Shown here: piece after piece, positions 8,259-8,486 of the stretch
Numbering within the stretch: position 1 is the stretch's first letter
How the letters are laid out: every line of letters starts with the position of its first letter
Source: a virus
Taxonomy: Duplodnaviria; Heunggongvirae; Uroviricota; Caudoviricetes
Strand: one strand, 5' to 3'
DNA length: 11,057 nt
IMG/VR virus record: IMGVR_UViG_2923360383_000006
Notes under the pieces: generated by a model
Databases searched by the model: none
Told to the model about the DNA's origin: nothing
What the model saw: the letters and a program-made list of their open reading frames with translations, nothing else
Translations under genes and position numbers: made by a program

Positions 8259-8303
8259 CGGTACGTACCATTTAATTTCAGTTTATAACGATGGTACGTA
8301 CCA
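8259..8303. promoter_or_regulatory. Paired palindromic operator candidates in a divergent control region
   Basis: CGGTACGTACCA at 8259-8270 and the perfect 12-bp palindrome TGGTACGTACCA at 8292-8303, centres 33 bp apart. The second abuts the orf60 start codon; both lie in the 146-bp gap between orf60 (plus) and the Icd-like operon (minus). Confidence 0.5.
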
Positions 8304-8486
8304 ATGCAAGAAGAAAATGTGAAACCAAAATTTGATCGCTCCGGCAGCACAAAGAAAAACATCCGCTTCGAAGACACATTGTTGCAACAAATTAACGAAG
8401 TTGCTGGGCCTGGTAATTTCAGCTCATGGGTAAAAAATGCTTGTCGTGATAAGCTACGCAAAGAAGGCATAGAACCCAAAGGCTGA
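8304..8486 (+). CDS. Small putative DNA-binding regulator (60 aa), candidate repressor
   Basis: Only convincing plus-strand gene among the island genes. MQEENVKPKFDRSGSTKKNIRFEDTLLQQINEVAGPGNFSSWVKNACRDKLRKEGIEPKG has a strand-helix pattern compatible with a ribbon-helix-helix fold. Palindromic operator at its start and a plus-strand terminator downstream; no obvious SD. Confidence 0.45.
   Translation: MQEENVKPKFDRSGSTKKNIRFEDTLLQQINEVAGPGNFSSWVKNACRDKLRKEGIEPKG

What the first reader, a model, noticed from the sequence alone, without database searches (positions are those of the whole stretch)
8259..8486. Divergent switch: paired palindromic operators with a small plus-strand regulator
Two GGTACGTACC palindromes 33 bp apart sit between the only plus-strand gene (orf60, RHH-like) and the replication operon, one over the orf60 start. 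This is the layout of a repressor/operator switch and makes orf60 a candidate master repressor, which would be a protein-based immunity component in an element that also has P1/P4-style RNA-immunity features.
Basis: partly seen in the sequence, partly recalled or inferred. Interest (0 to 1): 0.6.

Follow-up and report, generated by a model that had tools for sequence, protein, structure and literature searches.

The report
Candidate repressor switch of an E. coli satellite island
A small Arc-like DNA-binding protein and its two matching palindromic sites sit on the main promoter of a phage-satellite island (PICI) of E. coli, giving a testable candidate for the repressor that Gram-negative PICIs were thought to lack.

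Summary
GGTACGTACC occurs exactly twice (8260-8269, 8293-8302), 33 bp apart, and the second copy ends one base before the orf60 ATG. No simulated window (0/1500) had such a pair.

The window is a tRNA-Ile PICI satellite of the EcCICFT073 kind. orf60 is a YlcI/YnfO (DUF3950) protein under strong purifying selection. Its family profile matches P22 Arc.

In 119 related islands a small divergent protein of this family always occupies the same position. Each N-terminal variant has its own repeat word at fixed positions around a conserved leftward promoter: one copy in the -35/-10 spacer, one just downstream of the -10. Word class tracks the protein N-terminus (ARI 0.94), not Icd (0.00), AlpA (0.09) or primase (0.04).

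In close relatives, K17M and N19H coincide with a change of the operator centre from CG to GT. These residues align with Arc's base-contacting Q9 and N11.

Best reading: orf60 dimers repress the icd-replication promoter and their own promoter. Whether this is the island's master or immunity repressor, and how a helper phage would relieve it, is inferred only.

The adjacent RNA is a SymR-like antisense RNA on the plus strand, not P1 c4 or P4 CI.

The parts
8260..8269 (.). Operator O1: palindrome GGTACGTACC. It lies downstream of the -10 of the leftward promoter PL (about +7 to +16 of the predicted transcript) and over the -35 region of the putative orf60 promoter.
   Evidence: Exact copy. Conserved 10/10 in Pantoea L007. 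Replaced by GGTAGTTACC at the same position in L006, L010 and L059.
8293..8302 (.). Operator O2: palindrome GGTACGTACC (12-nt palindrome TGGTACGTACCA at 8292-8303). It lies in the spacer between the -35 and -10 of PL, just downstream of the putative orf60 -10, and abuts the orf60 ATG.
   Evidence: The same position relative to the ATG (-12 to -1) is seen in all compact-type relatives.
8304..8486 (+). orf60: a 60-aa YlcI/YnfO (DUF3950) ribbon-helix-helix protein and the predicted repressor. The predicted beta-strand is K17-F22 (KKNIRF), with helices at 24-34 and 39-54.
   Evidence: Pfam 33 bits (cut-off 25) and NCBIfam 31.1 bits (cut-off 30). Profile versus Arc: E 0.0019; hhalign 81%. AF2 pLDDT 73.6. 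RHH-only fold hits. pN 0.13-0.19 against pS 0.67-0.99.
8304..8309 (-). Predicted -35 of the leftward promoter PL: TTGCAT, the reverse complement of the orf60 codons ATG CAA.
   Evidence: Read from the sequence. ATGCAA is conserved in all four close relatives. The homologous position carries TTGACA, TTGACG or TTGAAG in the other classes. It matches only 3/6 of consensus, so the consensus scan did not call it.
8282..8287 (-). Predicted -10 of PL: TATAAA, with a 16-nt spacer. The alternative is TAAACT at 8280-8285 with an 18-nt spacer.
   Evidence: A positionally conserved -10 is found between the two operator copies in all classes.
8284..8289 (+). Putative -10 of the orf60 promoter PR: TATAAC. 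It overlaps the PL -10 on the other strand and would give a 5' UTR of about 7-8 nt without a Shine-Dalgarno sequence.
   Evidence: Sequence. TATAAT or TATAAC is present at the same place in L007, L010 and L059. This is inference; no transcription start data exist.
7955..8158 (-). Icd-like gene, the first gene of the operon driven by PL. It overlaps the next gene by 8 nt.
   Evidence: NF033153, 69.8 bits. PGAP annotation. ORF overlaps.
5522..7962 (-). The rest of the leftward early operon: hypothetical 106-aa protein, DUF4222 protein and P4-type primase/D5 helicase.
8159..8231 (+). SymR-like two-hairpin small RNA, antisense to the icd Shine-Dalgarno sequence and 5' UTR. Its 3' hairpin is at 8194-8228.
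   Evidence: Rfam RF01809, 34.7 bits, below the gathering score of 61. The same hit appears in 4 relatives. MFE z-score -6.7. The plus strand is favoured in 46/48 variants, with 155 G-U pairs on plus against 10 on minus. Covariation: 11/22 pairs with double changes, 0/500 shuffles reach the observed value.
8143..8151 (+). Extended -10 (TGGTATGAT) for the small RNA, inside icd codons 3-5.
   Evidence: Conserved at 80% or more in 45 unique sequences. The conservation could also reflect Icd coding constraint.
8580..8610 (+). Intrinsic-terminator-like hairpin plus T tract downstream of orf60.
   Evidence: (GGCGATCCTTTTGCGGTCGCC followed by TTTGTTTTAT).
8627..8824 (-). HTH_17/excisionase-family gene in the position that AlpA occupies in other Gram-negative PICIs. 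It lies upstream of, and in the same orientation as, the PL operon.

Best explanation
orf60 encodes an Arc-like ribbon-helix-helix protein of the YlcI/YnfO (DUF3950) family.

Inferred mechanism: one dimer binds each GGTACGTACC palindrome through its two-stranded beta-sheet, with K17, N19 and R21 as the base-reading residues. The sites are centred 33 bp apart (about 3 helical turns), so the dimers lie on roughly the same face of the DNA. Together they bracket the overlapping -10 elements of two divergent promoters.

O2 fills the spacer between the -35 (TTGCAT, overlapping the orf60 start codon) and the -10 of the leftward promoter PL. O1 covers the start of the PL transcript. Occupancy should therefore block RNA polymerase at PL, which drives icd-like, orf106, DUF4222, primase and downstream genes. 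The same sites cover the -35 region and the start site of the orf60 promoter, so the protein should also limit its own synthesis.

Shown here: the sites exist. They are conserved or co-vary with the protein. They sit on a positionally conserved promoter. The protein is a conserved RHH family member.

Inferred only: binding, repression, and the role in the island's life cycle. By analogy with P4 PLE/PLL and P22 immI, the protein probably shuts the early replication promoter after entry and keeps it silent in the integrated state. Helper-dependent expression would then come from the upstream AlpA-type promoter, or from inactivation of the repressor.
For: - Statistics: the exact palindrome pair is not expected by chance, 0/1500 simulations.
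- Real gene: orf60 has pN 0.13-0.19 against pS 0.67-0.99 versus Pantoea, Pluralibacter and metagenome relatives. It passes the Pfam and NCBIfam cut-offs.
- RHH fold: the family profile hits P22 Arc over nearly its full length (E 0.0019) and hhalign gives 81%. The AF2 model has an extended N-terminus and two helices. All top fold hits are RHH proteins: NikR, Arc, ORF56 and ArtA.
- Site conservation: Pantoea L007 has the same KKNIRF strand and both sites are 20/20 identical with the same 33-bp spacing, although the flanks have diverged.
- Co-variation: L006, L010 and L059 have MKHIRF and GGTAGTTACC/GGTAACTACC at the same positions. The two changed residues align with Arc Q9 and N11.
- Family-wide association: in 119 islands, 62 unique proteins all carry the invariant Arg. 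De novo repeat-word class against protein N-terminus gives V 0.96 and ARI 0.94. The controls are Icd 0.00, hairpin 0.36, AlpA 0.09 and primase 0.04.
- Independence from AlpA and primase: L006 and L010 share protein and operator type but have different AlpA and primase families.
- Site distribution: words occur 200 times in the intergenic regions and twice in 710 kb of flanking island DNA.
- Promoter geometry: in every class a -35 TTGAC-type hexamer and a -10 sit at fixed positions, with one word copy in the spacer and one just after the -10.
- Co-decay: in one island (L019) a stop at codon 5 of the protein coincides with degenerate sites and a degenerate -35.
Against: - There is no experimental evidence of expression, binding or repression.
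- In this window PL is weak by consensus: TTGCAT is 3/6 and TATAAA lacks T6. The promoter scan called nothing in 7900-8900. PL is assigned by positional homology to relatives with strong hexamers.
- orf60 has no Shine-Dalgarno sequence and its own promoter is only guessed.
- The operator word and the protein gene are physically adjacent, so part of the association is linkage. The C-terminal half also tracks the word (ARI 0.77), and the whole stretch from the hairpin loop to the end of the gene is hypervariable.
- In EcCICFT073, over-expression of AlpA alone induces the island (PMC6092414). The repressor therefore cannot be the only control.
- One genome carries two islands of the same specificity class.
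Confidence: 0.75

Rival explanations
1. orf60 does bind the palindromes, but the module is a local safety device for the toxic Icd-like gene. In this reading, protein repression of PL plus the SymR-like antisense RNA on the icd ribosome-binding site act like a toxin-control or addiction module. The island's life cycle would instead be governed by the AlpA-type activator and helper factors.
For: The first gene downstream of PL is an Icd-like cell-division inhibitor. A covariation-supported antisense RNA covers its ribosome-binding site. AlpA over-expression alone induces EcCICFT073 (PMC6092414). RHH proteins are common antitoxins and autoregulators, and family members hit HicB, PSK_trans_fac and MazE-type models.
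Against: icd overlaps the next gene, and the series continues with overlapping or closely spaced genes into the primase. Repressing PL therefore silences replication genes as well. There is no toxin gene downstream of orf60 in this window. Twenty or more specificity classes are hard to explain for a purely internal safety device.
Confidence: 0.2
2. The palindromes are bound by a different factor, such as the HTH_17/AlpA-like protein, integrase, a host protein or a helper-phage regulator. orf60 would then have an unrelated role.
For: An HTH DNA-binding protein is encoded 140 bp away. AlpA proteins are known to act on PICI promoters (PMC6092414). No binding data exist for any candidate.
Against: Word class is nearly independent of the AlpA class (ARI 0.09) and the primase class (ARI 0.04). 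L006 and L010 share the operator but have different AlpA and primase families, and L007 keeps both sites with no AlpA gene nearby. A host or helper factor would not explain 21 island-specific word classes that change with the adjacent protein's predicted DNA-reading residues.
Confidence: 0.04
3. The repeat acts at the RNA level, for example as a stem-loop formed by the 12-nt inverted arms in a leader transcript. Alternatively it is a chance or restriction-site-related palindrome without a regulatory role.
For: The arms 8260-8271 and 8291-8302 are perfectly complementary and could form a hairpin with a 19-nt loop.
Against: In L010 and L059 the two non-palindromic copies are direct repeats and cannot pair. 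In L006 they are inverted. What is conserved is the DNA word and its position, not a hairpin. Chance is excluded by simulation and by conservation across genera.
Confidence: 0.01

Closest known systems
Phage P22 immI region: Arc and Mnt ribbon-helix-helix repressors acting at the overlapping divergent promoters Pant and Pmnt
   Same: Both have a small RHH repressor whose best solved relative by sequence is Arc itself. Both have an operator placed between the -35 and -10 of the target promoter, divergent and overlapping promoters, and predicted negative autoregulation. The beta-strand positions equivalent to Arc Q9, N11 and R13 appear to set specificity. The P22 details are from my own knowledge.
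   Different: Here there is one protein rather than two, and two separated 10-bp sites 33 bp apart rather than one 21-bp operator. The controlled operon begins with icd-like and replication genes, not an antirepressor. The -35 overlaps the repressor's own start codon. The element is a satellite, not a phage.
Stl/Rpr master repressors of SaPIs and other Gram-positive PICIs
   Same: The regulator is transcribed divergently from the replication operon of a phage satellite, and its sites lie in the intergenic region. It fits the slot of a repressor that keeps the island quiescent (PMC6092414).
   Different: There is no homology: Stl proteins are HTH proteins, while this is a 60-aa RHH. The integrase and AlpA-type genes are not co-oriented with the repressor as int is with stl. 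Derepression by a helper protein is unknown here. In EcCICFT073 induction runs through the activator AlpA.
EcCICFT073 and other Gram-negative PICIs (Fillol-Salom 2018; Tommasini 2023)
   Same: The island type is the same: int, AlpA/HTH, Icd-like, DUF4222, P4-type primase, SSB and capsid genes. EcCICFT073 has the orthologous YlcI/YnfO gene (C_RS30120) and three copies of its own word, AGGTGTGGCCCAC. tRNA-Ile2 PICIs with a Clp-protease gene are described in PMC10111431.
   Different: These papers describe the genes as essentially unidirectional. They state that a global repressor is unclear, and they do not mention this gene or its sites.
P4 immunity (CI RNA, PLE/PLL) and P1 immI (c4 RNA-icd-ant)
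   Same: An early leftward promoter must be shut off for lysogeny. A second upstream promoter sits at the vis/alpA position. An icd-like gene is first in the operon, and an RNA regulator lies next to it.
   Different: There is no C4/IsrK match. The RNA here is on the opposite strand and acts as a cis-antisense. The predicted immunity factor acting on the promoter is a protein.
SymR antisense RNA of the E. coli symE/symR type I toxin-antitoxin pair (Rfam RF01809)
   Same: It is a two-hairpin RNA of about 75 nt, read from a promoter inside the 5' end of the target gene and antisense to its ribosome-binding site. Full-length model matches recur in five loci.
   Different: Scores of 33-41 bits are below the gathering score of 61. 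The target is an Icd-like protein, not SymE. This concerns the neighbouring RNA, not the palindromes.
E. coli K-12 YlcI (DLP12) and YnfO (Qin) prophage proteins
   Same: They belong to the same Pfam/NCBIfam family.
   Different: These proteins are uncharacterised, and no functional study was found. Their genomic context in lambdoid prophages differs and was not examined here.

Membership tests
YlcI/YnfO family (Pfam DUF3950 PF13132; NCBIfam NF041551) | Score above the curated cut-off of the family models | tested here: met
   Pfam 33.0 bits against a cut-off of 25. NCBIfam 31.1 bits against a cut-off of 30. RefSeq names the identical protein WP_001154805.1 'YlcI/YnfO family protein'.
Ribbon-helix-helix (Arc/MetJ) DNA-binding proteins | Sequence-profile similarity to solved RHH proteins across the strand-helix-helix unit | tested here: met
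   The profile of 25 class representatives hits Arc (1b28/1myl) at E 0.0019 over query positions 7-52. Further RHH hits include an Arc-family protein, CopG and MazE6. hhalign against Arc gives 81% probability, E 1.2e-5.
Ribbon-helix-helix (Arc/MetJ) DNA-binding proteins | Fold: an N-terminal beta-strand followed by two helices, with the strand pairing in an obligate dimer | tested here: inconclusive
Ribbon-helix-helix (Arc/MetJ) DNA-binding proteins | Binds repeated or palindromic operator sites through beta-sheet side chains | not testable with these tools
   Only indirect support is available. The operator centre co-varies with K17 and N19, which align with Arc Q9 and N11. Word class against N-terminus gives ARI 0.94.
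Gram-negative PICI (EcCICFT073 type) | Island of about 10-15 kb at a specific attachment site with co-oriented int, AlpA-type regulator and pri, plus capsid or packaging genes | tested here: met
   The island is about 11 kb and lies next to tRNA-Ile between mug and nfeF. It carries an integrase, an HTH_17/excisionase gene, a P4-type primase, SSB, a ClpP-protease/capsid fusion and a DUF1441 gene. Its synteny matches EcCICFT073. The regulator is HTH_17 rather than Pfam Phage_AlpA.
Gram-negative PICI (EcCICFT073 type) | Induction, packaging and transfer by a helper phage | not testable with these tools
   This has been shown experimentally only for EcCICFT073 (PMC6092414).
PICI master repressor (Stl/Rpr class) | Transcribed divergently from the excision/replication operon, with binding sites in the intergenic region | tested here: met
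   orf60 is the only plus-strand gene. The sites lie between it and the icd-primase operon.
PICI master repressor (Stl/Rpr class) | Homology to Stl/Rpr (HTH-type repressors) | tested here: not met
   orf60 has no HTH family hit. It is an RHH/DUF3950 protein.
PICI master repressor (Stl/Rpr class) | Deletion gives helper-independent induction, and repression is lifted by a helper-phage protein | not testable with these tools
   No data were found in the held literature.
P1 c4 / P4 CI RNA immunity (Rfam C4 RF01695, IsrK) | Match to the C4 or IsrK covariance models, with the RNA on the same strand as, and upstream of, the controlled genes | tested here: not met
   There is no C4 or IsrK hit at E up to 1 in the window, or at E up to 0.1 in eight relatives including EcCICFT073. 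The structured RNA is on the opposite strand.
SymR antisense RNA (Rfam RF01809) | Bit score at or above the gathering score of 61 | tested here: not met
   The window scores 34.7 bits. L002, L006, L007 and L010 score 33.5-41 bits. The architecture and antisense position are alike, but membership is not established.

The most novel reading that the evidence does not exclude
The YlcI/YnfO-type RHH proteins are the missing master or immunity repressors of Gram-negative PICIs. They form a hypervariable operator/repressor cassette with more than 20 specificity classes that sets satellite-satellite immunity, analogous to heteroimmune lambdoid phages. Helper phages would overcome it either by AlpA-driven read-through from the upstream promoter or by anti-repressors that target the conserved C-terminal tails. 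The neighbouring SymR-like antisense RNA would add a second, RNA-level lock on the first gene of the operon.
Probability: 0.35. Interest if true: 0.75.

Novelty: new member of a known kind. Interest (0 to 1): 0.6.

Why it matters
Gram-negative PICIs are widespread satellites that move virulence and defence genes. Their founding paper states that a global repressor 'is unclear' and that the difference from Gram-positive PICIs 'is a mystery' (PMC6092414). Later surveys treat the genes as unidirectional (PMC10111431).

This analysis assigns a concrete, testable function to a family known only as DUF3950/YlcI/YnfO, which comprises 1025 clusters across Enterobacterales. It shows that the experimentally tractable EcCICFT073 carries the same gene and sites.

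It also predicts which residues (K17, N19, R21) read which bases. It reveals a set of more than 20 natural operator/repressor pairs of about 60 aa that could serve as orthogonal regulatory parts. If the repressor role holds, it changes the model of how these islands stay silent and establish themselves.

Tried and rejected
The same motif in viral contigs worked.
- The first word-based protein search found only 6 clusters. A profile search was needed.
- The first AF2 run on 5 sequences was too poor to use (pLDDT 61).
- The consensus promoter scan found nothing in 7900-8900. Promoters were therefore placed by positional homology.
- The mismatch-tolerant search for further operator copies in the window gave chance-level hits only.
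- My first ORF picker mis-called several loci and was replaced by an HMM-guided one. My first AlpA search found 4 genes; after re-seeding with several families it found 80 of 119.
- De novo word calling fails for classes with short or degenerate cores, such as the TGTAAG class, which was called 'ACATAAAA'. This accounts for most apparent exceptions in the association.
- A first shuffle script timed out.
- Heteroimmunity of co-resident islands could not be tested. Only two same-genome pairs were available: one differed in class and one was identical.
- The 221-aa minus-strand ORF 7955-8620 spanning the region was rejected as spurious. It is not annotated, and it overlaps the Icd-like gene and orf60, both of which have family support.
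- Literature searches for YlcI/YnfO/DUF3950, for PICI with ribbon-helix-helix, and for PICI with master repressor and Gram-negative found no functional study.

Full report
**The observation.** GGTACGTACC occurs exactly twice in the window, at 8260-8269 and 8293-8302. Both copies extend to GGTACGTACCA. Together they form perfect 12-nt inverted arms. The second copy ends one base before the ATG of orf60 (8304-8486, plus strand), so it abuts the start codon and leaves no room for a Shine-Dalgarno sequence. Relaxing the pattern to two mismatches adds only chance-level hits. In 1500 simulated windows none had the same 10-nt palindrome twice within 60 bp.

**What the window is.** The window is 100% identical to a region of E. 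coli APEC 16-1068. There it forms an island of about 11 kb beside a tRNA-Ile gene, between mug and nfeF. All annotated genes are on the minus strand except orf60. They are:
- integrase;
- an unassigned 228-aa protein;
- an HTH_17/excisionase-family protein in the AlpA position;
- Icd-like protein, a 106-aa protein, and a DUF4222 protein;
- P4-type primase/D5 helicase and SSB;
- a ClpP-protease/major-capsid fusion and a DUF1441 protein.

This is the gene order of Gram-negative PICI satellites. The experimentally studied EcCICFT073 has the same order, including a YlcI/YnfO gene on the opposite strand (C_RS30120) next to an Icd-like gene. PICIs in tRNA-Ile2 with a Clp-protease gene are mentioned by Tommasini et al. 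(PMC10111431).

**What orf60 is.** It passes the curated cut-offs of Pfam DUF3950 and NCBIfam YlcI_YnfO_N. Against 73-75% identical proteins from Pantoea, Pluralibacter and a metagenome, synonymous sites are saturated (pS 0.67-0.99) while pN is 0.13-0.19. It is therefore a protein-coding gene under purifying selection.

**Do the sites belong to the protein? Close relatives.** Close relatives give a natural experiment.
- The Pantoea protein has the same KKNIRF strand. Its two upstream sites are 20/20 identical, with the same 33-bp spacing and the same junction to the ATG, although the surrounding DNA and the gene's silent sites have diverged.
- The Pluralibacter protein, a metagenome protein and a further isolate protein have MKHIRF. 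They carry GGTAGTTACC or GGTAACTACC at the same two positions.
- The only changes in the strand, K17M and N19H, are at the Arc Q9 and N11 equivalents. The only changes in the site are its two central base pairs.
- In two of these loci the non-palindromic copies are direct repeats. The conserved feature is therefore a DNA word, not an RNA hairpin.

**Do the sites belong to the protein? The wider family.** A conserved 17-nt motif from the adjacent RNA retrieved about 120 satellite-sized contigs.
- In 119 usable loci, a small plus-strand protein alignable to orf60 always occupies this position.
- The strongest repeat in each intergenic region, found without reference to the protein, falls into 21 word classes at fixed positions: -44 and -12 from the ATG in compact types, and -102, -79 and -31 in the longer type.
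- Word class tracks the protein's N-terminal part almost one to one (V 0.96, ARI 0.94).
- Association is weaker with its C-terminal part (ARI 0.77) and poor with the equally close hairpin (0.36).
- There is essentially no association with Icd (0.00), the AlpA-like protein (0.09) or the primase (0.04).
- Most residual exceptions are failures of my word caller on short cores.
- L006 and L010 share protein and operator type but have different AlpA and primase families.
- The words occur 200 times inside these intergenic regions and twice in 710 kb of the rest of the islands.
- One island with a stop at codon 5 of the protein also has degenerate sites and a degenerate -35.
- Physical linkage contributes to the association, because the whole stretch from the hairpin loop to the end of the gene is hypervariable. 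Linkage alone does not explain concerted change of two or three dispersed copies together with the predicted reading residues.

**Where the sites sit.** In every class the minus strand carries a -35 hexamer (TTGACA, TTGACG or TTGAAG) and a -10 at fixed positions. One word copy lies in the spacer and another directly after the -10. The -35 and the rightward -10 are local minima of diversity inside the hypervariable stretch. In the compact types the -35 overlaps the protein's start codon: ATGTCAA reads TTGACAT on the other strand.

In this window the homologous elements are TTGCAT (8309-8304, the reverse of ATGCAA, conserved in all four close relatives) and TATAAA (8287-8282) with a 16-nt spacer. 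O2 lies in the spacer and O1 lies 12 nt downstream of the -10. These hexamers are weak, and the consensus scan did not call them, so PL in this window rests on positional homology. A plus-strand TATAAC (8284-8289) overlaps the PL -10 and would start an almost leaderless orf60 message within O2. A terminator-like hairpin with a T tract follows the gene at 8580-8610.

Sites in a spacer and over a transcription start are positions of repression, not activation.

**Mechanism proposed.** Inferred: orf60 dimers on O1 and O2, about three helical turns apart, occlude both overlapping divergent promoters. This silences the icd-primase operon and limits orf60 itself.

Life-cycle role, by analogy: PL would fire on entry into a cell without repressor and be shut as the protein accumulates, as with P4 PLE. 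Helper-dependent expression would come from the AlpA-type promoter upstream on the same strand, or from inactivation of the repressor. This is compatible with published data that AlpA activates EcCICFT073 genes and that its over-expression alone induces the island (PMC6092414). It also means the RHH protein is not the sole control.

**The neighbouring RNA.** No C4 or IsrK match exists in the window or in eight relatives. Instead, a full-length but sub-threshold SymR match lies on the plus strand at 8159-8231 and recurs at the same place in four relatives.
- The segment folds far better than shuffles (z = -6.7).
- The 3' hairpin is more stable on the plus strand in 46 of 48 variants. It has 155 G-U pairs on the plus strand against 10 on the minus strand.
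- 11 of 22 pairs show double compensatory changes, and no shuffle of 500 reaches the observed values.
- A conserved extended -10 (TGGTATGAT, 8143-8151) lies inside the first icd codons.

It is best read as a cis-antisense RNA covering the icd ribosome-binding site, a second lock on the same operon.

**Comparison and novelty.** The kind is known: an Arc/Mnt-like RHH repressor at overlapping divergent promoters. The closest match in logic is P22 immI. The closest match in role is the Stl/Rpr repressor of Gram-positive PICIs, but without homology. What is new is the assignment.
- The family is annotated only as DUF3950/YlcI/YnfO (phrog_949, 'unknown function').
- It comprises 1025 clusters across Enterobacterales.
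- No functional paper was found.
- The PICI literature says a global repressor in Gram-negative elements is unclear and treats the genes as unidirectional.
- EcCICFT073 carries the gene and three copies of its own word, so the hypothesis is directly testable in an established system.

**Verdict.** Confidence is about 0.75 that orf60 binds these sites and represses PL. Confidence is about 0.35 that it is the master or immunity repressor of these satellites.

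Noticed in passing
window 8143-8240 (+): A SymR-like two-hairpin small RNA lies antisense to the icd ribosome-binding site and has a conserved extended -10 (TGGTATGAT) inside icd. It is supported by strand-specific G-U pairs and covariation, but scores below the Rfam gathering score. It suggests that E. coli symR and this satellite RNA are related.
   Followed up: yes
window 5348-5437: Inverted arrays of GTTCACC/GGTGAAC-type short repeats lie just 3' of the primase gene. They surfaced only through a spurious microRNA match. They probably form the island's replication origin, with iterons as in P4 ori/crr.
   Followed up: no
window 8304-8309 and the homologous position in L006, L007, L010, L020, L035, L115 and others: The repressor's start codon overlaps the -35 of the promoter it is predicted to repress: ATGCAA reads TTGCAT and ATGTCAA reads TTGACAT. 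In this window's type no Shine-Dalgarno sequence is present, which implies a very short leader or a leaderless message.
   Followed up: partly
orf60 residues 52-60 (window 8457-8483) and relatives: The C-terminal tails are shared across unrelated specificity classes: ...RGIEPKG, ...RRQRRKAKExE, and a 101-aa form ending ...ARRQAEGSGENPLVSSLDAL.... The protein therefore looks modular. The tail could be an oligomerisation or anti-repressor interface.
   Followed up: no
L019 (IMGVR_UViG_2778261085_000011), intergenic region right of the hairpin: The RHH gene has a stop at codon 5. Its operator copies and the TTGAC -35 are degenerate compared with the intact L017 class. This is apparent co-decay of the repressor and its sites, seen in a single case.
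   Followed up: partly
window 7955-8158 (-): PHROGs annotates the Icd-like family as 'transcriptional repressor' (phrog_6196, 154 bits), while NCBIfam calls it 'host cell division inhibitor Icd-like'. The two annotations conflict, and the function is not established for these satellites.
   Followed up: no
window 8124-8138: A GC-rich hairpin, TCCCGCCCTTGCGGG, lies inside the icd coding sequence. It is conserved at 80% or more across 45 unique relatives and sits just upstream of the small-RNA promoter.
   Followed up: no
window 8957-9643 (-): A 228-aa ORF between the integrase and the HTH gene has no hit in Pfam, NCBIfam or PHROGs. It occupies the variable accessory slot where other islands carry Bro-N or Ant-type genes (L005, L006).
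   Followed up: no
L033 / L038 and L014 / L029: Two isolate genomes each contributed two islands. One pair has different repressor/operator classes and the other has identical ones. Strict heteroimmunity of co-resident islands is therefore not shown, and the sample is too small to judge.
   Followed up: partly
window 2026-3939 (-): A ClpP-like prohead protease is fused to a major capsid protein in one 637-aa ORF. PMC10111431 reports this gene type in tRNA-Ile2 PICIs as a target site for helper-embedded PICIs.
   Followed up: no
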